From assembly GCF_030013595.1 (NCBI RefSeq), contig NZ_CP122768.1: 64,000 nucleotides of DNA. One strand, given 5' to 3'. This document shows, piece by piece, positions 46,563 to 54,322 of this stretch. The stretch comes from Escherichia coli. Its GTDB lineage: Bacteria > Pseudomonadota > Gammaproteobacteria > Enterobacterales > Enterobacteriaceae. A program made the translations under genes and the position numbers. A model generated the notes under the pieces. That model had not been told where the DNA came from, ran no database searches, and was given only the letters and a program-made list of their open reading frames with translations. Position 1 is the first letter of the stretch. The number at the start of each line of letters is the position of its first letter.

Positions 46563-47156
46563 TCATGCCCCCGCGAGGCTTGCAACGTTAATTTTAACCA
46601 GGCGACGGGGAGGGATTTTGAAAGCACTAAGCCAGTTATTCGGATCCCCCTGATATTCAGTAATCCGCCGTCCGGCTTCATCCATTCTTACGGTTTTACG
46701 CAAATAGCCCGGCGTATTTTCCACAGCCCACTGAACACTGTCTTTTGCAGCCTGGTAAATCTGATCTTCCAGCACCGCCAGCGTTGCAGAATCTGAAACG
46801 GAACGAATATCCACATCACTGAATTTTTTAGCCAGCTTCTGTGCACCAATTAATGCACGCTTGCGGTAATCCATCGACTTTTCACCAGCAAACGGGGCTG
46901 GAGCGCGACGGCCCATATTGCTGTATGCGGAATCCGCTTTAGCCTGGGCTTCTGCCAGTGAGGATTCATCTTCGACTGACGCGACGATGTTTTTATTCGC
47001 GTCATCCTCGTCCGCTTTTGTGAAATCCTGTGCGGGGATCGCATTCAGAATTTCGATAATCTCCTGCGGAGTGCTGCCCTGCGACTCTGACAGAGCGTTA
47101 ACCACCTCCATCAGTTTTAATCGCAAATCTTCTTTGCTTGCTGGCATTTTTACCAC
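46563..47156 (-). CDS. hypothetical protein (island cargo)
   Basis: 197 aa ORF, acidic central region; no motif I can assign. Confidence 0.55.
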   Translation of the reverse strand: MVKMPASKEDLRLKLMEVVNALSESQGSTPQEIIEILNAIPAQDFTKADEDDANKNIVASVEDESSLAEAQAKADSAYSNMGRRAPAPFAGEKSMDYRKRALIGAQKLAKKFSDVDIRSVSDSATLAVLEDQIYQAAKDSVQWAVENTPGYLRKTVRMDEAGRRITEYQGDPNNWLSAFKIPPRRLVKINVASLAGA

Positions 47157-47186
47157 CTCTCTTTTTTCACCAAAAAATCACGACCA

Positions 47187-47384
47187 TCAGGCCGGACGTT
47201 CTACGGGATAAAGCGCCCGCTGCATTAAACGCCGGGCGACCTCATGAATGCTCGGAGCAATCCCCAGCGGAGAATTGCGGCGTTCCTCGTCCTGGATGCG
47301 CTGTAATGCTTCAATCTGATCACGAGCGAGTAAAACGGGTTTCACGCTGGCTTTTCTCATAGTCATATCTCCTGAACAAAACAA
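47187..47384 (-). CDS. hypothetical small protein, possibly ribbon-helix-helix-like
   Basis: 65 aa ORF with KPVLLARDQIEALQRI segment; start codon uncertain. Confidence 0.4.
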   Translation of the reverse strand: MFCSGDMTMRKASVKPVLLARDQIEALQRIQDEERRNSPLGIAPSIHEVARRLMQRALYPVERPA

Positions 47385-47532
47385 TGATTATGATTGCACA
47401 AACTGAAATAACGATCTACATCATTGCAATTTATGAAACAATAACGCATGATGATCGCGTTCTTCCCATTGACTTCAATCACCTGAAAAACAAAGCCCGC
47501 AACACTTCTGGCTGCGGGTTTTTTACTGGCAC

Positions 47533-47560
47533 AAAAAAGCCGGGAAAAATCCCGGCCTCC
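47533..47560 (-). terminator. terminator after PerC-like gene
   Basis: minus-strand hairpin gccgggatttttcccggc followed by T-run, directly after stop at 47562. Confidence 0.6.
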
Positions 47561-47561
47561 G

Positions 47562-47849
47562 TCACTGACTGCAATTTTTCGATCCAGGGTATTTCCTGAA
47601 TGCCTTACCATTGGGCTGATGTAATCCCATCCCGGCATGTGCCCGGCTGATGGTTTCGCGCATTTCCCCGAAATTATCCTGCCTTGCTGGTGGGCGTGCT
47701 GCCTTGCGGATACATTCCGCGCGACGTTTTGCCGCCTGTTCCCGTGCCTTGTCATCATTCGCCAGCATGATGACCTCAGCCCACCGCGCCGCCGCTCTCC
47801 GGTACAGACCACGCGCTTCCAGTGCTTCCGCTTTGCTGTCGTGAATCAT
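47562..47849 (-). CDS. PerC-family transcriptional regulator-like protein
   Basis: 95 aa with AEALEARGLYRRAAARWAEV motif typical of PerC-like proteins on E. coli mobile elements. Confidence 0.6.
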   Translation of the reverse strand: MIHDSKAEALEARGLYRRAAARWAEVIMLANDDKAREQAAKRRAECIRKAARPPARQDNFGEMRETISRAHAGMGLHQPNGKAFRKYPGSKNCSQ

Positions 47850-48388
47850 GCGCCTGTTTTCTCCTTTGCTGCCCGGCGCTGACGTTTGCGCTTCTCATTC
47901 AGCGCCACCAGCCGCGTTTCTGCGTCCTGTTGTTCCTGTGGTGTCACCTCGCCGCACGGCTGGCCTTTCAGGTCGTAGCGTACCCCACCAGCCATTAAGG
48001 CGCGGTAATAGCGCGGACACTGCGCATAAGATGCCAGCGTCGCACGCAATGCCCCTGGACCGAATGCCAGCCCCCTGACGGCGAGATCCTGCATCAGGTC
48101 GTCGAATATCCCCACCTTAAGCGGCTTCGGTGCTTCCCGGCTGAATAATTCAGGCCACAACTCAGTGAGGCGGTTAACGCGCCTGCGGTTTTTGCGCTGG
48201 CGTTTGGTCATATGCCGCCACGGTGTCGCCCCTGTGGGCTTCTGCTGCGCTTTCTGGTTACCGGGCATCACTTTATGCGCCGATGTGGTTTTATCCTGCT
48301 CCTGCGCCGCCTGCGTCGTTTTCTGCGGCGTGCCGTAAATGCCTTTCGGTTTTCTGTTAATGGTCAGCTTAGTCATGCTTTGCCCCAT
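47846..48388 (-). CDS. ProQ/FinO-domain RNA-binding protein
   Basis: 180 aa; LTELWPELF...PKPLKVGIFDDL...YAQCPRYYRAL...RYDLKGQPCGEV closely resembles ProQ/FinO domain signature. Confidence 0.7.
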   Translation of the reverse strand: MGQSMTKLTINRKPKGIYGTPQKTTQAAQEQDKTTSAHKVMPGNQKAQQKPTGATPWRHMTKRQRKNRRRVNRLTELWPELFSREAPKPLKVGIFDDLMQDLAVRGLAFGPGALRATLASYAQCPRYYRALMAGGVRYDLKGQPCGEVTPQEQQDAETRLVALNEKRKRQRRAAKEKTGA

Positions 48389-48537
48389 CGTTTTTACTGG
48401 TTGCTACGTTGCCCAACGGCACTGACACAACATTCTGTTTTCATTTTTAACATTCCTGATTTTTTAATTCCTCACCTGCTGCACAGTGAAAATTTATGAA
48501 GTTAATAACAATATGATTTTAAATGTATTTTTAAGTA

Positions 48538-48858
48538 CTCACTTTTTAATCCTTATATATACGCAAAAGTGAGGTAAATAGTTAAGTTTTAGTTAATATC
48601 TTGCATGGTGTGTTTTTTAACCTACCTGTTATTTTTATTACCTCATTTCTATTAACTCACCATTCCTCACTTTTGTTCCTCACTTTTTATTATTCTTGTT
48701 CTGCTCCTCAGTCGTTTTCTTTATTGTTGTAATCTGTTGTTTTGCAATGTGTTTTTAACTCCTCACTTTTTGACCTATATACAGGTGAGAAAGTGAGGAG
48801 TGGCGTTGATTTTTTGTTAAATTACCCGCCATCCTCACTTTTGCTCCTCACTTTTTAC
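48538..48858. repeat. iteron array in AT-rich region (putative island replication origin)
   Basis: at least 8 copies of TCCTCACTTTT in both orientations directly after the replication gene stop. Confidence 0.75.
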
Positions 48859-50270
48859 AGTGGGCGCACATAATCACCGTCAATAGCGATTACGCCGTCG
48901 CTTTCCAGCTTGTACAGCCAGCGCCGGAAGTGTTTCATCTCATACCCCAGCTTTTTCATATCATCGCGGAGAAGGGCGATAGTGCACGCCTCCCCGTGTG
49001 CTGTTCGCGTTCTGATGCACTGCCATAGCGCAGCGTGATTTTCCGTCTTGTTCCCGGCCTCCTCGATGCGTTCCAGTTCAACAGGTGGGCGCGGCTTATC
49101 CACAACCACCAGCGACGTGATTAACTCCCCGTCAGTGTCGGTAAAAAGCTCCACCACGCGTAAATCATATGCAGCCTCTTTCAGTTCCTCCGCGTCCTTC
49201 ATTTTGGTGCAGGAGATAACCAGGGCTTCACTGTCCGCACCTTCACGGCGAATACGGTATTCAGCGTCCAGAGATGCACGAAATGCACTGGAACCACGCG
49301 CCCCTTTTGTTTCATCCTTGCCGGAATGGTGAACCACCAGTACCGTGGCCCCTGTGCGTCGTTTCAGTTCGTCACATCCACGGATAAACGCCCCCATATC
49401 CCGCGCGTCATTTTCATCATTACCGCCAAAGCAACGCGCCAGCGTATCCAGAATAATCATGCGTACCGGTTTACCCGTTTCCCGTTCAACCTGACGGGAA
49501 GCGATGACCATTTCATCAACATCAAGCGGGACCGCCGGAAAAATCGGGCGGTTTACCAGGTACAGATTTTTCACCCGTTCATCATTAACGATTTCCCATG
49601 CTTTGATACGACGAGGAACACCGATCCCGCCCTCACCAACGACATACATAACCGCACCATGTACAACCCTGCGACCTCCCCAGTGGCGACCAGTGGCAAC
49701 ATGACACGCCCAGGAACACGCGAGGAACGATTTATAGGAACCGCTCGCGCCGTATGTGCTGCACAACGAATTAGCCGGAATCACGCCCTTAACGACATAA
49801 TCAAGCTGTGTGTCGTATCCTGCAGATCCAATACTCATTGGTAGCGTGGTTTTTCGCTGGCTGTATTGCTCGTCAGTAAGTATTTCCCCGCGCTCTGCCT
49901 GTTCGCGGATCCGTTGCAGGTAGTCGTGCCAGTTCTCCAGCTTCTGGCTGTGCATTCCCTCAGGGTAATAATTCGCATCCCGTACACCTGCCGCCGCCAG
50001 TTTTTGCCCGATGGCATTAATATTTGACGGCTTGATGTGGCCTGCCTTGTACAGCCGGACACAATAGCGACCATCGTCGATAATTTTCAGGTCTGCCAGT
50101 TCGTCAAGCTGGCTGTCTCCCAGCCATACAGGCGGAACATTGTCGCCAGCAAGTCGCCCGTCCTGTTCCTGCCATTGTTTCGCGTGCGCCCAGGCATCAC
50201 TACCCGCAAAAATAATGACTTCGGTCATTTTGTCGTGTGGCTGTTTTTTTAAGTTCGGTGCCAGTTTCAT
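48855..50270 (-). CDS. replication initiator ATPase/helicase (RecA-fold, primase-associated type)
   Basis: 471 aa with Walker A GASGSYKS and Walker B-like RMIILDTL; followed by iterons. Confidence 0.7.
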   Translation of the reverse strand: MKLAPNLKKQPHDKMTEVIIFAGSDAWAHAKQWQEQDGRLAGDNVPPVWLGDSQLDELADLKIIDDGRYCVRLYKAGHIKPSNINAIGQKLAAAGVRDANYYPEGMHSQKLENWHDYLQRIREQAERGEILTDEQYSQRKTTLPMSIGSAGYDTQLDYVVKGVIPANSLCSTYGASGSYKSFLACSWACHVATGRHWGGRRVVHGAVMYVVGEGGIGVPRRIKAWEIVNDERVKNLYLVNRPIFPAVPLDVDEMVIASRQVERETGKPVRMIILDTLARCFGGNDENDARDMGAFIRGCDELKRRTGATVLVVHHSGKDETKGARGSSAFRASLDAEYRIRREGADSEALVISCTKMKDAEELKEAAYDLRVVELFTDTDGELITSLVVVDKPRPPVELERIEEAGNKTENHAALWQCIRTRTAHGEACTIALLRDDMKKLGYEMKHFRRWLYKLESDGVIAIDGDYVRPL

Positions 50271-50566
50271 TTTGTGCCCCTGAATGCGTTAATCATGTTT
50301 TTCATTTTCTGAATATTTGCCCGTGCCTTTGCGTTGCTGGTGGGCTGTTTGCGTGGTGTGGCCTGTATCAGTGAAAAATCACGCCGGAACTGATAAACAG
50401 GCATCACGCAGTCGTAGCTGTACCCATCACGGCGGTAAGTAACGCACCGTCCGGCAATACTTTTAATCGTTACCGTGCCGCCGTAGTTATCCCGGAAAAT
50501 ATCGCCGGGGCGGATTTCAGGCCGAGGGAGACCACTGGCAGTAAAGCCAGAATTTTTCTTTTTCAT
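50267..50566 (-). CDS. hypothetical protein
   Basis: 99 aa ORF, start overlaps upstream gene stop (operon). Confidence 0.5.
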   Translation of the reverse strand: MKKKNSGFTASGLPRPEIRPGDIFRDNYGGTVTIKSIAGRCVTYRRDGYSYDCVMPVYQFRRDFSLIQATPRKQPTSNAKARANIQKMKNMINAFRGTK

Positions 50567-50570
50567 GGTT

Positions 50571-50771
50571 TTATTTTCCTGTCAGCAGTTCCGGTTTTAT
50601 TTCCGCACGAATACAGAGTTCAGAAAAAAATTCAGGAGAACCAACAATCTCATTACTTTTCAGTCGGCATTGTGATTTCACTTTCCCTTTATCCAGGTAA
50701 ACCAGTATGCGTCCGGTGAAATCATCTGGCACACTCAGGGTAATTGTCATTGTTGCTTGCTGATTATCCAT
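50571..50771 (-). CDS. hypothetical small protein, single copy of a ~55 aa repeated domain
   Basis: 66 aa; motif DDFTGRILVYLDKGKV...GSPEFFSEL homologous to both halves of the upstream 121 aa protein. Confidence 0.55.
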   Translation of the reverse strand: MDNQQATMTITLSVPDDFTGRILVYLDKGKVKSQCRLKSNEIVGSPEFFSELCIRAEIKPELLTGK

Positions 50772-51129
50772 GATTCACCCCCTGAATAACCTGATAACCG
50801 CAACTGGTCAGCAATTCGATAAATTCCGGCAGTGTTCCGAAACAGCAATCATCTCGCAGCCGTTCTCGGGATACTTCAACGCCGTTTTCGTAGTGACTCA
50901 CCATGCGTCCGGTAAAATGCAGATCATCATCGTGATGGCTCGTTAACGGCTTAATCAGTCGCGCACGTTCTGCCAGCTCCAGCAATGCTTCAACGCTTCC
51001 GGCAATTGCACCATCCGGCAGGTGATAATTACTTGCCACGCGTCCATTCTCCACGTTAACCAGTAGCTGCCCGGTGAATTTCTCATCAAACTGAATGCTG
51101 TTAAGGTCAGAAATTGACAGGTTAATCAT
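50764..51129 (-). CDS. hypothetical protein, tandem duplication of the same ~55 aa domain
   Basis: 121 aa; EKFTGQLLVNVENGRV...GSVEALLEL and LHFTGRMVSHYENGVEV...GTLPEFIELL. Confidence 0.55.
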   Translation of the reverse strand: MINLSISDLNSIQFDEKFTGQLLVNVENGRVASNYHLPDGAIAGSVEALLELAERARLIKPLTSHHDDDLHFTGRMVSHYENGVEVSRERLRDDCCFGTLPEFIELLTSCGYQVIQGVNHG

Positions 51130-51325
51130 GGCGTACCTCCTGGCGAATACGGGCAGCGAATACCATCACGCAGCCATCAGGAGATTGCTGACGCGCTTCC
51201 TGTTCGCTGGTGGCCTCAATGGTAATCACGCGCGGTTGTGCCGTGCTCAGGGCGATAAAACGCCAGATGTATTTATTCAGGTTGTGCGAGTCCCGCCCTT
51301 GCGGGTGTGTGGTATGATTTCTCAT
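51122..51325 (-). CDS. hypothetical small protein, first gene of island operon
   Basis: 67 aa with SD gaggt before ATG at 51325; overlaps next gene start (ATGATTAA). Confidence 0.45.
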   Translation of the reverse strand: MRNHTTHPQGRDSHNLNKYIWRFIALSTAQPRVITIEATSEQEARQQSPDGCVMVFAARIRQEVRHD

Positions 51326-51420
51326 AGCTACCTCGATACTCTTTCTATCGTTGGTGGTTAGAAGCCCCGTTACTGCTCCAACAGTGCGGGGTTTCGTCGT
51401 TTCTGTGCCTTGCATTAACA

Positions 51421-51505
51421 AGGTGTAAGACACAATGTAAAATACAAGTGTCTTACACGTCAAGCCTTCAAAATAATTTTTTTTCGTGTATATTGTCTTA
51501 CACCA
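51421..51505. promoter_or_regulatory. operator cluster: three copies of GTGTAAGACAC / GTGTCTTACAC
   Basis: ggtgtaagacac (51421), gtgtcttacacg (51449), ttgtcttacacc (51493) between divergent island transcription units. Confidence 0.6.
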
Positions 51506-51524
51506 ACAACATAAGGAGTTAGAC

Positions 51525-51704
51525 ATGGCAACAGGTCCAAAGAATGCAAAATCACAATCTGTAACTGCACGTATTGCCCATGAAATTATTGAAGGCATGG
51601 AAAACGTGAAAGAAGAAGGCGAAAGTACAGGGCAGTTTATAAGTGCAGCCATGCGCGGCGAGATCAAACGCCGCCAGCGCCGCAAGGCCAAAGAGCAGGA
51701 ATAG
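51525..51704 (+). CDS. small DNA-binding regulator, ribbon-helix-helix-like (candidate island repressor)
   Basis: 59 aa from MATGPKN with RBS aaggag; SVTARIAHEIIEGM resembles an RHH beta-strand/helix; divergent from operon. Confidence 0.5.
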   Translation: MATGPKNAKSQSVTARIAHEIIEGMENVKEEGESTGQFISAAMRGEIKRRQRRKAKEQE

Positions 51705-51805
51705 CCCACCAGCAAGCCAGCACACTGATCACATTGCCAACCGGATGTAATCACGGCATAGTAATCATCTCTCTTGCGTTGGGGATAACGCGCAATTAGT
51801 GTTGA

Positions 51806-51836
51806 AGGGCCACCGTAGCGGGTGGCCTTTTCTTTG
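51806..51836 (+). terminator. rho-independent terminator
   Basis: ggccaccgtagcgggtggcc hairpin plus ttttcttt. Confidence 0.55.
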
Positions 51837-51986
51837 CCTGTTATCCGGCAATTGTGGCGCTTCGCCACACGGTTGATATAATTCCCCTGCACTGATCCAT
51901 TTTTTTCGCAGCAGGTTAATTGTTCGCAAGGGCGCTCCGGTAACGGGGCGCTTTTTGTTATGTTCATCGCGTTACGCCTCACACCA

Positions 51987-52193
51987 TTACGCAGCCGTTC
52001 CGCGCGCTTCTTCCTCGCGCTCTTTCAGCCAGGCCAGCACTTCATCTTCATACCAGCCAACACGACGCAGACCGATTTTGAATCCTTTCGGGAATTTTCC
52101 GGCGTTGATCATGTCCTGTAGCGAACTGTCTGCCTTGATGCGCAGAATATTTTTTACTTCCTGACGGGTAAGAATTTTTCTGATTACTTCCAT
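51987..52193 (-). CDS. alpA: AlpA-family phage regulatory protein (excisionase/activator-like)
   Basis: 68 aa; ...GKFPKGFKIGLRRVGWYEDEVLAWL matches the AlpA HTH signature. Confidence 0.75.
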   Translation of the reverse strand: MEVIRKILTRQEVKNILRIKADSSLQDMINAGKFPKGFKIGLRRVGWYEDEVLAWLKEREEEARGTAA

Positions 52194-52261
52194 CGTGTTT
52201 TACCTCATTAATCCGGCGTATTCCGGTGATAAATACGGTAAAACAGGGCAGGGCGGGAAAA

Positions 52262-52295
52262 ACAGTACCCACCGTTTTAAAACGGTACCCACTGT
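52262..52295. promoter_or_regulatory. palindrome ACCGTTTTAAAACGGT flanked by GTACCCAC repeats upstream of alpA
   Basis: perfect 16 bp palindrome 52271..52286 about 80 bp upstream of alpA start. Confidence 0.4.
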
Positions 52296-52325
52296 TTTTT
52301 ATCTCATTGATTTCGCTTTCTTTTT

Positions 52326-52358
52326 GCAAAAAAATAGCGACCGCAAGGGCCGCTATTG
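52326..52358 (-). terminator. terminator after the 80 aa ORF
   Basis: minus-strand hairpin atagcggcccttgcggtcgctat followed by T-run. Confidence 0.55.
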
Positions 52359-52361
52359 TGA

Positions 52362-52604
52362 TTACCGCTTCCACTTCTTAGGTCGCCCACCGCATTTAAG
52401 GCTGGTGGGTCTCAGCACCTTGTCGATGCTTTCAGCCAGATTTTTCGATGCGCCACGCGAGCGCAAAAAACTGACTACCTCGTGTTTTGTGGGGGCTGTT
52501 GATTTGTCTTCCGGATCGTACGTTGACCAGAATTCACGATTTGCCATTAAGGCCAACTGAAGACCTTCACCATAGGCAGGGGATACCTTTTCATTGAAAA
52601 ACAC
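52362..52604 (-). CDS. hypothetical small protein between int and alpA
   Basis: 80 aa ORF followed directly by a terminator; basic C-terminus. Confidence 0.4.
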   Translation of the reverse strand: MFFNEKVSPAYGEGLQLALMANREFWSTYDPEDKSTAPTKHEVVSFLRSRGASKNLAESIDKVLRPTSLKCGGRPKKWKR

Positions 52605-52720
52605 CTGGATAGCTCCTTGAATTTCATGATTTGGGTGACTCCTCTCTGTATTGGGTGGGTTGTGGCGATTATACGATGGTTTAGCATGGTTTGCATCGCT
52701 TTTACTGGTTTTTTGTACAG

Positions 52721-53962
52721 TTATACGGCACGGATACCCCTTTTACCACTGGCTATGGTCACTCCAGTTGCTGCGGCCTCTACAAATTCCCCCCACCAGC
52801 GCATAAGCACCACGCGCTTTTCCAGGTAGTTACTTCGGTTATATGCTCGCCTTACCTCGTTCGTGTCCACGTGTGCGAGTGCGGCCTCGATTACGTCCGG
52901 CTCGAATCCTTCCTCGTTCGCTGCTGTACTGAATATGGCGCGTAATCCGTGAGACACCAGCACACCAGCGTAACCCATCCGGCGTAATGCAGCGTTAGCG
53001 GTCTGGCTGCTCATTGGTAGCATTGGATTTTTAAGGCTGGGAAAAACATGTTCCCTGTGTGCGCTGATTGGCTTCATGGTTTCCAGTACAGCCATAGCCT
53101 GACCGCAAAGGGGGATCACATGGTCACGGCGCATCTTCATGCGTCCGGCTGGAATCGTCCAGGTTTCGGCATCGAGATCTATTTCTTCCCAGCGTGCGGC
53201 GGCTGCTTCGGCTGGGCGTGCTACGGTCAACAGTTGCCACTCGATCAGCAATCTGGTTTGCCGTTCTATGCTGGCGACCGATAAATCGTGCATTAGCTGC
53301 GGTAGCTGTTCCGGTCGGATGGTTGGCATGTGCTTTTTGGTGGGTGAGGGAAATGCCTTGCGGACGTTAGCAGCGGTGTTGATGTCAATCAGCCCACTGT
53401 TGGCGGCAAAATCCATCACTTCATTGATGCGCTGCAAAACGCGTTTCAGTGTTTCCAGGTTGCCGCGTGCTTTAATGGGGGTGAGTATCTCAACAAAGCG
53501 GCGAGCGGTGAGGGTATCTATTGGCGTGTTTCCGATGTACGGGAATACGTATTTTTCCAGGGATCGCCAGATATCCTTAATCGTGTTGTAAGCCAGATTC
53601 TGGCCTTTTTTCATCTCGTACCAGTCCGAGGCAACTTTTTCGAACGTGTTGCCCTTTTTCCGACTCTCTGCTTCACGTTTCCGGCGTTCGTGGTCCTGTG
53701 GGTCAACTCCCTTCGCTATGAGTGACCTGTATTCATTCCGTCGTTCTCTGGCATCGGACAGGGAAACATCATTCAGCGATCCGAGGCTGATGATAGTCCG
53801 TTTTTTATCTGCCGGGCGGTAGTACGTAAAACGCCAGATTTTTGATCCGGAGGGTTTCACCAGAAGAAATAATCCTCCGCCATCCTGCAGGGTGTATTCC
53901 TTTTCCCCTGGTCGTGCGTTTTTGATCTCCGTAATAGTTAGTGGGGTGGTTTTTCGTGCCAT
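52721..53962 (-). CDS. int: tyrosine-type site-specific integrase (P4-like)
   Basis: 413 aa; N-terminal arm-binding-like domain, C-terminal catalytic region with HGLRA...RRAYNRSNY; adjacent to tRNA. Confidence 0.9.
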   Translation of the reverse strand: MARKTTPLTITEIKNARPGEKEYTLQDGGGLFLLVKPSGSKIWRFTYYRPADKKRTIISLGSLNDVSLSDARERRNEYRSLIAKGVDPQDHERRKREAESRKKGNTFEKVASDWYEMKKGQNLAYNTIKDIWRSLEKYVFPYIGNTPIDTLTARRFVEILTPIKARGNLETLKRVLQRINEVMDFAANSGLIDINTAANVRKAFPSPTKKHMPTIRPEQLPQLMHDLSVASIERQTRLLIEWQLLTVARPAEAAAARWEEIDLDAETWTIPAGRMKMRRDHVIPLCGQAMAVLETMKPISAHREHVFPSLKNPMLPMSSQTANAALRRMGYAGVLVSHGLRAIFSTAANEEGFEPDVIEAALAHVDTNEVRRAYNRSNYLEKRVVLMRWWGEFVEAAATGVTIASGKRGIRAV

Positions 53963-53978
53963 GTTTTTTTACTCATCG

Positions 53979-54053
53979 GTAGCTATATGCCTGGTCGTAG
54001 CTATACGGCTTTAGCTACACGCTGGACCGTATAGCTAAACGTGTAGCTAAAAA
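53979..54053 (+). repeat. cluster of five GTAGCTA(T/A)A-type repeats (putative integrase arm sites), including the 25 bp copy at 54029..54053
   Basis: gtagctata, cgtagctatacgg, ttagctacacg, gtatagctaaacg, gtgtagctaaaaa. Confidence 0.6.
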
Positions 54054-54171
54054 ATCCGGTTATAACCCTATCTTACCGATTCAATCCGGCGACTGAAAAC
54101 AACAAAAAAGCCCGTTAATCAGTAAATTAACGGGCTTTCAATAGGTTACCGATGCTGTCCGATATTCGATT

Positions 54172-54248
54172 TGGTCGGCACGAGAGGATTTGAACCTCCG
54201 ACCCCCGACACCCCATGACGGTGCGCTACCAGGCTGCGCTACGTGCCG
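54172..54248 (-). tRNA. proL: tRNA-Pro (anticodon GGG)
   Basis: minus-strand 77 nt CGGCACGTAGCGCAGCCTGGTAGCGCACCGTCATGGGGTGTCGGGGGTCGGAGGTTCAAATCCTCTCGTGCCGACCA. Confidence 0.95.
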
Positions 54249-54322
54249 ACTCGTGGCTGTTAATACTACCGTTTTCCACACCGATTGCAAGTAAGATATT
54301 TTGCTAACTGATTTATAATTAA

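What the first reader, a model, noticed from the sequence alone, without database searches (positions are those of the whole stretch)
51325..51704. Divergent repressor-operator switch with three GTGTAAGACAC palindromic half-sites
A 59 aa ribbon-helix-helix-like protein on the plus strand is transcribed divergently from the island operon that starts at 51325. The 200 bp between them contains an inverted pair and a third copy of GTGTAAGACAC. This looks like the master regulatory switch of the island. Whether this protein or AlpA is the key regulator is not known from sequence.
Basis: partly seen in the sequence, partly recalled or inferred. Interest (0 to 1): 0.5.

Follow-up and report, generated by a model that had tools for sequence, protein, structure and literature searches.

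The report
Small repressor switch of a phage satellite
A 59-residue DNA-binding protein of a previously uncharacterised family, with three matching binding sites over two back-to-back promoters, is probably the missing repressor of a common class of phage-parasitising islands in E. coli and its relatives.

Summary
The 10-mer TGTCTTACAC occurs three times in the 64 kb window, all within 81 bp (0.12 expected). The sites lie between a 59-aa gene (51525-51704, +) and the leftward operon that starts at 51325.

In 58 of 61 related loci analysed, including the prototype satellite EcCICFT073, the three-site layout is the same. Each site reads xTG-N5-CAx.
- Two sites cover the spacer and start site of the leftward promoter.
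- One site abuts the -10 of the small gene's own promoter.

The central 5 bp differ between loci but match among the three sites of one locus. They track residues 12 and 14 of the predicted DNA-reading strand, giving 12 residue-pair classes and about 20 distinct cores.

Best reading: a dimeric RHH repressor shuts off the early and replication operon, limits its own synthesis, and sets the immunity type of the island.

I also found a conserved, structured antisense RNA candidate over the ribosome-binding site of the operon's first gene.

No experiment supports any of this yet. How it connects to AlpA and to helper-phage induction is inference.

The parts
51525..51704 (+). Gene for the 59-aa YlcI/YnfO-family ribbon-helix-helix protein, the candidate repressor. 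Predicted strand is residues 10-18; helices are 19-28 and 35-58.
51423..51433 (.). Site S1, GTGTAAGACAC. It lies immediately downstream of the -10 of the leftward promoter and covers the predicted start site.
51448..51458 (.). Site S2, GTGTCTTACAC. It fills the spacer of the leftward promoter and overlaps the last base of its -35. It starts at -77 from the ATG in 58 of 61 loci analysed.
51493..51503 (.). Site S3, TTGTCTTACAC. It overlaps the last two bases of the -10 of the small gene's own promoter and its start site. It starts at -32 from the ATG in the 58 canonical loci (-35 in one of them).
51434..51463 (-). Predicted leftward promoter P_L: -35 TTGACG at 51463-51458, an 18-nt spacer, and -10 TACATT at 51439-51434. 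It drives the Icd-like to primase operon.
   Evidence: The promoter scan found it. The -35 reads TTGAnn in 56 of 57 unique related regions.
51467..51494 (+). Predicted rightward promoter P_R of the small gene: -35 TTCAAA, a 16-nt spacer, and -10 TATATT at 51489-51494.
   Evidence: The promoter scan found it. The -10 is TATACT in 45 of 57 unique regions, but the -35 is poor.
51805..51836 (+). GC hairpin followed by TTTTCTTT. Likely the intrinsic terminator of the small gene.
   Evidence: Fold of 51705-51965 and direct reading of the sequence.
51325..51402 (+). Candidate cis-antisense RNA of about 75 nt. It has a 5' hairpin (51325-51360) whose complement holds the operon's Shine-Dalgarno sequence, then a terminator hairpin (51361-51395) with a U-rich tail.
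   Evidence: MFE is -35.2 kcal/mol with z = -6.1. Of 15 pairs, 92.5% of cells are paired and 11 pairs show compensatory changes; slid controls give 29-40%. Strand test: 29 G-U and 11 mismatches on the + strand, against 1 G-U and 39 mismatches on the - strand. It matches no Rfam family.
51310..51318 (+). Extended -10, TGGTATGAT. Candidate promoter of the antisense RNA, inside the first codons of the Icd-like gene.
   Evidence: A TAnnnT hexamer was found 4-10 nt before the start codon in all 46 unique upstream regions, at a shared offset (4 or 10 nt) in 45 of them. It is kept through variable amino acids (H, S, C, D, F), which always use a T-ending codon.
51122..51325 (-). First gene of the leftward operon, an Icd-like protein of 67 aa.
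   Evidence: NCBIfam NF033153, E = 9e-20.
51987..52193 (-). alpA, which converges on the small gene. No - strand terminator was detected between it and the operon.
   Evidence: Pfam Phage_AlpA, E = 4.5e-8. Terminator scan.

Best explanation
The window holds a 10-kb PICI-type phage satellite: int, alpA, primase, PerC and a terS-like gene, bounded by 26-nt att repeats next to tRNA-Pro.

Its 59-aa YlcI/YnfO-family protein is a ribbon-helix-helix dimer. The two-stranded beta ribbon reads an 11-bp site, xTG-N5-CAx. The invariant R16 probably contacts the conserved outer TG/CA bases, and the variable residues 12 and 14 probably read the central 5 bp.

Dimers on S2 (promoter spacer) and S1 (start site) would block RNA polymerase at the strong leftward promoter. 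This keeps the Icd-like, DUF4222 and primase operon silent while the island is integrated. A dimer on S3 would limit the protein's own synthesis. The central 5 bp and residues 12 and 14 together define the island's immunity type.

A cis-antisense RNA over the ribosome-binding site of the first operon gene probably adds a post-transcriptional lock.

Induction probably comes from the helper-activated alpA promoter upstream. Its transcript runs antisense through the repressor gene and on into the operon.

Shown by computation: the fold, the site layout and the site-protein covariation. Inferred: binding itself, the sign of regulation, the existence of the antisense RNA, and the link to AlpA.
For: Non-random sites: three copies within 81 bp against 0.12 expected.

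RHH fold:

Conserved geometry: in 58 of 61 loci analysed, S3 is at -32 (-35 in one), S2 at -77, and S1 lies 22-25 or 35-36 bp further out, with one locus at 45.

The three sites change together. Core mismatches within a locus total 39 of 270, against 157 +/- 10.6 when sites are shuffled among 27 classes (0 of 20,000 shuffles).

The cores track the protein. Core distance correlates with residues 12+14 (rho 0.56) more strongly than with other strand residues (0.26), the helices (0.31) or spacer DNA (0.11). Pairs with the same residues 12/14 differ at 0.35-1.5 core bases. Pairs with different residues differ at 3.2-4.0, at every level of helix divergence.

Other proteins are unlikely binders. The same operator and strand occur with AlpA proteins 34-97% identical, or with no detectable AlpA, and with different first operon genes.

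Promoter elements are conserved around the sites.

The gene is under purifying selection, dN/dS 0.23.

The module is present in EcCICFT073. For that island the literature states that a global repressor is unclear and that expression of ORF3 depends on alpA (PMC6092414).
Against: - There is no binding, expression or genetic data for any member of the family.
- Over-expressing AlpA alone induces EcCICFT073 (PMC6092414). Repression by this protein must therefore be bypassable, and 'master' is not established.
- The protein and its sites are physically linked, so part of the covariation reflects shared descent. The within-locus agreement of three sites is the part that descent cannot explain.
- Residues 12 and 14 do not fully determine the core: the K,S pair goes with two unrelated cores.
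- P_R has a poor -35, so S2 could also act positively on it.
Confidence: 0.7

Rival explanations
1. The protein does bind the three sites but is not the quiescence repressor. It is either a Cro-like or dual regulator made during induction, or mainly a self-regulator that activates P_R from S2 and represses it from S3. The antisense RNA and the absence of AlpA would then be what keeps the operon silent.
For: P_R has a good -10 but a poor -35. S2 lies just upstream of that -35, a position from which some regulators activate. AlpA alone is sufficient for induction (PMC6092414). The antisense RNA candidate is well supported.
Against: Two of the three sites sit on core elements of P_L, the spacer and the start site, in every locus. 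That is the classic layout for occlusion. The small gene has its own promoter, faces away from the operon, and has its own terminator, as maintenance repressors do.
Confidence: 0.15
2. The repeats are bound by a different factor, such as AlpA, the Icd-like protein, the replication initiator or a host protein. The small protein would then have an unrelated role.
For: PHROGs labels the Icd-like family 'transcriptional repressor'. AlpA is a DNA-binding regulator encoded nearby.
Against: The site cores follow residues 12 and 14 of the small protein. They do not follow AlpA, which is 34-97% identical or undetected within a single operator class. They do not follow the first operon gene either, which has different N-terminal types within one class. 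The iteron-like repeats that fit an origin lie elsewhere, at 48530-48856.
Confidence: 0.04
3. The protein is the RHH antitoxin of a toxin-antitoxin pair, or a partition or packaging adaptor like ParG or omega. This would echo lambdoid YlcI, which sits next to cos. The sites would then serve as an autoregulated TA operator or a centromere-like array.
Against: In this window a terminator follows the gene directly and no + strand partner ORF exists. The island encodes no ParA-like ATPase. The sites coincide with promoter elements rather than forming an array. This subfamily is absent from 50,697 phage genomes.
Confidence: 0.05

Closest known systems
Phage P22 immI region: the RHH repressors Mnt and Arc, the divergent promoters Pant and Pmnt, and the sar antisense RNA (from my own knowledge of the P22 literature)
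   Same: Small RHH repressors bind operators that overlap back-to-back divergent promoters. A short cis-antisense RNA covers the ribosome-binding region of the regulated operon. The module is a secondary immunity system of a mobile element.
   Different: There is no detectable sequence similarity. This module has one repressor and three sites instead of two repressors with one operator each. The sites are single 11-bp units rather than 17- to 21-bp operators bound by tetramers. The regulated operon encodes replication functions, not an antirepressor.
Omega repressor of plasmid pSM19035 (PDB 1irq, 2bnw) and CopG-family RHH regulators
   Different: Omega uses arrays of 7 to 10 contiguous heptads. 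Here there are three separated 11-bp sites with an outer TG/CA dyad. This protein also has a longer helix 2 with an invariant basic segment, EIKRRQR.
Stl/Rpr master repressors of Gram-positive PICIs (SaPIs)
   Same: The proposed role is the same: a satellite-encoded repressor, transcribed divergently from the replication and packaging operon, keeps the island silent.
   Different: Stl proteins are large, mostly HTH proteins that are inactivated by binding a helper-phage protein, and they are co-oriented with int. Here the protein is a 59-aa RHH that converges on alpA and int. No inducer interaction is known, and induction runs through the activator AlpA (PMC6092414).
Satellite P4 immunity: CI RNA with seqA/seqC, and the upstream late promoter P_LL reading through vis (from PMC10111431 and my own knowledge)
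   Same: The gene order matches: int, an alpA/vis homologue, an immunity region, then the primase operon. An upstream helper-activated promoter could override a locally silenced early promoter.
   Different: P4 immunity relies on a sense-strand processed RNA. Rfam's C4 and isrK models find nothing here. This island has a protein repressor plus a candidate antisense RNA.
YlcI and YnfO of the E. coli K-12 cryptic prophages DLP12 and Qin (DUF3950)
   Same: They belong to the same NCBIfam family, NF041551, and show the same strand-helix-helix pattern.
   Different: Their function is unknown. Lambdoid ylcI lies next to cos, divergent from nohD, not next to int and alpA. The satellite subfamily has no tblastn match in phage genomes.

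Membership tests
Ribbon-helix-helix (Arc/MetJ/CopG) superfamily | Strand-helix-helix fold of about 45 residues | tested here: met
Ribbon-helix-helix (Arc/MetJ/CopG) superfamily | Obligate dimer with an antiparallel two-stranded ribbon formed by the N-terminal strands | tested here: inconclusive
Ribbon-helix-helix (Arc/MetJ/CopG) superfamily | Gly-x-Ser/Thr/Asn turn at the start of helix 2 | tested here: met
   G32-E33-S34-T35 lies between the helices. E33 and S34 are invariant and G32 is at least 90% conserved in 42 homologues.
Ribbon-helix-helix (Arc/MetJ/CopG) superfamily | Sequence-specific DNA recognition by alternate residues of the strand | tested here: met
   This is computational evidence only. 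Positions 13, 15 and 17 are hydrophobic or small. Positions 10 and 16 are invariant (S and R). Positions 12 and 14 are hypervariable and predict the operator core. Physical binding cannot be tested with these tools.
Ribbon-helix-helix (Arc/MetJ/CopG) superfamily | Detectable sequence similarity to a solved or curated RHH family | tested here: not met
   No Pfam hit. No PDB sequence or profile hit below E = 0.8. Foldseek finds nothing.
NCBIfam NF041551 YlcI/YnfO family | HMM score above the curated cut-off | tested here: met
   66.8 bits against a cut-off of 30, E = 1.2e-18. RefSeq annotates the E. coli homologues with this name.
Gram-negative PICI (EcCICFT073 type) | An island of about 10-15 kb with int, alpA and pri, mostly unidirectional genes, specific att sites, and no lysis or tail genes | tested here: met
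   Integrase is at 52721-53962, alpA at 51987-52193, and an AAA_25 primase at 48855-50270. PerC, ProQ/FinO and terS-like genes are also present. The 26-nt att repeats at 44047 and 54028 give 9,981 bp next to tRNA-Pro. EcCICFT073 has the same order of genes.
Gram-negative PICI (EcCICFT073 type) | Induction, replication and packaging that depend on a helper phage | not testable with these tools
   This needs experiments. Published data exist for EcCICFT073 only (PMC6092414).
PICI master repressor (Stl/Rpr) | Deleting the repressor derepresses the island, and a helper-phage protein relieves repression | not testable with these tools
   No genetic data exist. The literature states that a global repressor in Gram-negative PICIs is unclear.
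PICI master repressor (Stl/Rpr) | Homology to, or the architecture of, Stl/Rpr proteins (larger, HTH-containing, co-oriented with int) | tested here: not met
   The protein is a 59-aa RHH with no HTH, and its gene converges on alpA and int.
Type II toxin-antitoxin RHH antitoxin | A co-transcribed toxin gene directly downstream or upstream | tested here: not met
   A terminator hairpin begins about 100 bp after the stop codon, at 51805-51836. There is no + strand ORF of 40 aa or more before alpA, apart from ones antisense to alpA.
P1 C4 / P4 CI immunity RNA | A match to Rfam C4 or isrK in the leader of an icd-like or eta-like gene | tested here: not met
   Nothing but tRNA-Pro reaches significance in 44000-54500 at E of 1 or less. 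The conserved structure also favours the antisense strand.

The most novel reading that the evidence does not exclude
The YlcI/YnfO-type RHH protein, together with the cis-antisense RNA, is the long-sought immunity module of Gram-negative PICIs. It silences the replication operon and defines many non-cross-reacting immunity types through a simple two-residue, five-base-pair code. It is switched off when helper-activated alpA transcription runs antisense through its gene. This would explain why no repressor was found in EcCICFT073: the ORF carries a late-added RefSeq locus tag and was probably missing from the annotation then in use. It would also supply a natural set of orthogonal miniature repressor-operator pairs.
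Probability: 0.4. Interest if true: 0.75.

Novelty: new member of a known kind. Interest (0 to 1): 0.62.

Why it matters
Gram-negative PICIs are widespread. This module is in 1263 of 5426 complete E. coli genomes, including Nissle 1917 and O157:H7. These islands move virulence and defence genes and are being developed as delivery vehicles.

Their regulation is known only through the activator AlpA. The founding paper states that a global repressor is unclear (PMC6092414). A specific, testable repressor candidate, present in the prototype island, would close that gap.

It would also give a function to the YlcI/YnfO (DUF3950) family. The apparent recognition code, with 12 residue-pair classes and about 20 distinct operator cores, is a ready-made set of small orthogonal repressor-operator pairs.

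Tried and rejected
- Pfam scan of the 59-aa protein: no family.
- PDB sequence and profile searches: only chance hits.
- Literature searches for YlcI, YnfO and DUF3950, and for a PICI repressor: nothing on function.
- C4/CI-type immunity RNA upstream of the icd-like gene: rejected. There is no Rfam hit, and the structure favours the opposite strand.
- A trans target for the conserved leader motif TTGGTGGTTAGAAG elsewhere in the window: none beyond chance.
- tblastn of the protein against 50,697 phage genomes: no match.
- An exact match of tRNA-Pro sequence at the far end of the island: none. The att repeat lies outside the tRNA.
- Whether co-resident islands avoid sharing a specificity class: about 1 of 24 pairs share a class against about 11% expected. 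This is a hand count and is not significant.
- The K-12 ylcI upstream region: no comparable three-site layout was seen on reading the sequence. That gap holds cos.

Full report
**Setting**

The finding lies inside a 9,981-bp island. The island is bounded by 26-nt direct repeats at 44047-44072 and 54028-54053. It sits next to tRNA-Pro(GGG) at 54172-54248 and yejM.

All long genes of the island are on the - strand:
- integrase, 53962-52721
- AlpA, 52193-51987 (Pfam Phage_AlpA)
- an Icd-like protein, 51325-51122
- two phrog_340 paralogues
- a DUF4222 protein
- an AAA_25 primase, 50270-48855
- a ProQ/FinO-domain protein
- PerC
- two head-related proteins
- a terS-like protein

This is the gene order of Gram-negative phage-inducible chromosomal islands (PICIs). 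The closest E. coli islands are about 90% identical over the regulatory region and sit at the same tRNA-Pro/yejM site.

The only + strand gene of the island is 51525-51704. It encodes 59 aa, has AAGGAG 7 nt upstream of the ATG, and is separated by 199 bp from the start of the Icd-like gene.

GTGTAAGACAC is exact at 51423-51433 (+) and 51448-51458 (-). A third copy at 51493-51503 (-) matches 10 of 11 bases. The common 10-mer TGTCTTACAC occurs three times in the window, all within 81 bp. Shuffles expect 0.12 copies, and 0 of 100 shuffles reach three.

**What the protein is**

Pfam finds nothing. NCBIfam places the protein in the YlcI/YnfO family (NF041551, 66.8 bits against a cut-off of 30). PHROGs places it in phrog_949, function unknown. 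The held literature has nothing on the function of this family.

Forty-two homologues show a strand-helix-helix pattern:
- S10 and R16 are invariant.
- Positions 13, 15 and 17 are hydrophobic or small.
- Positions 12 and 14 are hypervariable.
- A G-E-S-T turn lies between the two helices.
- A basic segment, EIKRRQR, is invariant or nearly so.

The gene is under purifying selection, with median dN/dS of 0.23.

**Comparative evidence: the core of the case**

A scan of one genome per species returned 68 loci across Enterobacterales, plus Gilliamella. In 58 of the 61 loci with enough upstream sequence, the layout is the same:
- Site S3 starts at -32 from the ATG (-35 in one locus).
- Site S2 starts at -77, so the S2-S3 distance is fixed at 45 bp.
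- Site S1 lies 22-25 or 35-36 bp further upstream, with one locus at 45 bp.

Every site has the form xTG-N5-CAx. The central five bases differ between loci:
- TCTTA in this window
- AAATA or ACATA
- AATCG
- TCAGC
- AATGC
- GCACC
- AACAC
- TCGGA
- TGGCC
- ACTCC-type cores, and others

Within a locus, the three sites carry the same core. Summed over 27 non-redundant classes, S1 and S2 differ from S3 at 39 of 270 core positions. When sites are shuffled among classes the figure is 157 +/- 10.6 (0 of 20,000 shuffles reach 39). Shared descent cannot produce three sites that change together. Selection for recognition by one factor can.

That factor tracks the small protein:

| Compared with operator-core distance | Spearman rho |
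|---|---|
| Residues 12 + 14 | 0.56 |
| Other strand residues | 0.26 |
| Helices | 0.31 |
| Spacer DNA | 0.11 |

Pairs of loci with the same residues 12 and 14 differ at 0.35-1.5 core bases. Pairs with different residues differ at 3.2-4.0. This holds at every level of divergence in the rest of the protein.

The same operator class occurs with AlpA proteins 34-97% identical, or with none detectable, and with different first operon genes. This argues against AlpA or the Icd-like protein as the binder.

S1 and S2 are inverted in some classes and direct in others, sometimes for the same strand sequence. That is what one expects of a symmetric dimer on a pseudo-palindromic site with an asymmetric centre, as described for the omega repressor.

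**Position relative to promoters**

On the - strand, the scan finds TTGACG (51463-51458), an 18-nt spacer, and TACATT (51439-51434). The -35 reads TTGAnn in 56 of 57 unique related regions, and its last base is the first base of S2. A TAnnnT-type -10 follows at 17 +/- 1 nt in most regions. So S2 fills the spacer, and S1 covers the -10 edge and the start site. In the 35-bp class, S1 covers about +5 to +15.

On the + strand, the -10 is TATATT here (51489-51494) and TATACT in 45 of 57 regions. S3 begins at its fifth base. The -35 is poor.

This layout predicts occlusion of the leftward promoter by two dimers and negative autoregulation by one. The sign of regulation is inferred from position, not shown.

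The 100-nt leader of the leftward operon contains two hairpins conserved in 35 diverse loci. Of 15 pairs, 92.5% of cells are paired and 11 pairs carry compensatory changes. Slid controls give 29-40%.

Counting wobble pairs separates the strands. On the sense leader there are 39 mismatches and 1 G-U. On the opposite (+) strand there are 11 mismatches and 29 G-U. The structure is therefore selected in a + strand RNA.

On that strand the elements come in this order:
1. A TAnnnT hexamer sits inside the first codons of the leftward gene. It was found in all 46 unique regions, at a shared offset in 45 of them. It is kept through variable amino acids, which always use T-ending codons. In this window it is the extended -10 TGGTATGAT at 51310-51318.
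2. A hairpin follows whose complement holds the operon's Shine-Dalgarno sequence.
3. A GC-rich hairpin with a U-rich tail ends the unit.

The window version, 51324-51402, folds at -35.2 kcal/mol with z = -6.1. No Rfam family matches it, including C4 and isrK.

I read this as a cis-antisense RNA of about 75 nt that blocks translation of the first operon gene. It is a prediction: no transcript data were available.

**Link to what is known**

The prototype island EcCICFT073 (NC_004431.1, 1377930-1388654) has the same module: int, an HTH/AlpA gene, a YlcI/YnfO gene on the opposite strand (C_RS30120), then an Icd-like gene, DUF4222, primase and the rest. Its sites are GTGTGGCCCAC twice plus CTGTCCCCCAC, and its strand sequence is SQALKARV.

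The locus tags of the small gene and of the Icd-like gene are late additions. This suggests they were absent from the annotation used earlier.

The paper that defined these islands reports four things (PMC6092414):
- AlpA is an activator.
- AlpA over-expression suffices for induction.
- Helper phages switch on alpA.
[quoted passage not shown]"

Later surveys describe integration, Bro, replication and late zones and mention immunity RNAs, but not this protein (PMC10111431).

In this window, alpA converges on the small gene. Both hairpin terminators between the two genes have their T-rich tails on the + strand only. An alpA transcript could therefore run antisense through the repressor gene and on into the operon. 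This resembles the P4 late promoter that overrides local immunity. It would reconcile a resident repressor with the sufficiency of AlpA, but it is inference.

**Distribution**

The 379-bp module matches 1263 of 5426 complete E. coli genomes, with up to six copies per genome, including Nissle 1917 and O157:H7. The protein has no tblastn match in 50,697 phage genomes.

The lambdoid members that gave the family its name sit in a different context. K-12 ylcI lies beside cos, divergent from nohD.

**Verdict**

The three repeats are full sites for an RHH dimer, not half-sites.
- The recognition logic can be read from natural variation.
- The module belongs to a widespread class of satellites for which no repressor had been identified.
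- The kind of system is classical: an RHH repressor with divergent promoters and an antisense RNA, closest in logic to P22 immI. I therefore file it as a new member of a known kind.
- Binding, the sign of regulation, the antisense RNA and the route of induction all await experiment.

Noticed in passing
window 51310-51402 (+): Candidate cis-antisense RNA of about 75 nt over the ribosome-binding site of the Icd-like gene. It has two hairpins with compensatory changes in 35 loci. G-U counts favour the + strand. The unit ends in a terminator-like hairpin and begins after a conserved TAnnnT hexamer inside the first codons. It matches no Rfam family.
   Followed up: yes
window 44047-44072 and 54028-54053: A 26-nt direct repeat (25 of 26 identical) bounds a 9,981-bp island. 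The right copy lies about 120 bp from tRNA-Pro, not inside it.
   Followed up: partly
window 48530-48856 (and 47149-47166): Five copies of a TCCTCACTTTTT-type repeat. Four of them are spaced 83-141 bp apart just downstream of the primase gene. This is probably the island's replication origin.
   Followed up: no
window 44913-45146: Three copies of TTGACACTTTTT(CGCG), inside longer 39-nt repeats, at the far end of the island beside the terS-like gene. This may be a packaging site or a promoter array.
   Followed up: no
window 51873-51962 (+): A perfect TATAAT at 51877-51882 is followed by a strong + strand terminator at 51928-51955, between the repressor gene and alpA. It may encode a second small + strand RNA, antisense to the region just downstream of alpA.
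   Followed up: no
L073 2252-3380 (E. coli K-12 DLP12, NC_000913.3 580251-581379): The name-giving family member ylcI is divergent from the terminase gene nohD, and the lambda-type cos site lies in the 388-bp gap. This context is quite different from the satellites.
   Followed up: partly
L071 10243-10653 (E. coli CFT073, NC_004431.1 1380242-1380652): In EcCICFT073 the repressor gene and the Icd-like gene carry late-added locus tags (C_RS30120, C_RS30125). A further 57-aa ORF (C_RS30800) follows the repressor gene on the same strand. It has no counterpart in the window.
   Followed up: no
loci L005/L020/L043/L050, L018/L037/L054/L060, L019/L063/L065 and others: Genomes with several copies of the module (Xenorhabdus mauleonii, X. 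innexi, Pectobacterium brasiliense and others) almost always carry different strand and operator classes. This is suggestive of heteroimmune co-resident satellites, but it is a hand count and not statistically significant.
   Followed up: partly
window 50571-51129 (-): Two adjacent paralogous genes (phrog_340, 121 and 66 aa) contain three copies of a diverged 37-nt segment (50686, 50882, 51044). Their function is unknown.
   Followed up: no
window 47562-48388 (-): The island carries a ProQ/FinO-domain RNA-binding protein next to a PerC-family regulator. The ProQ-like protein could act on the island's structured RNAs.
   Followed up: no
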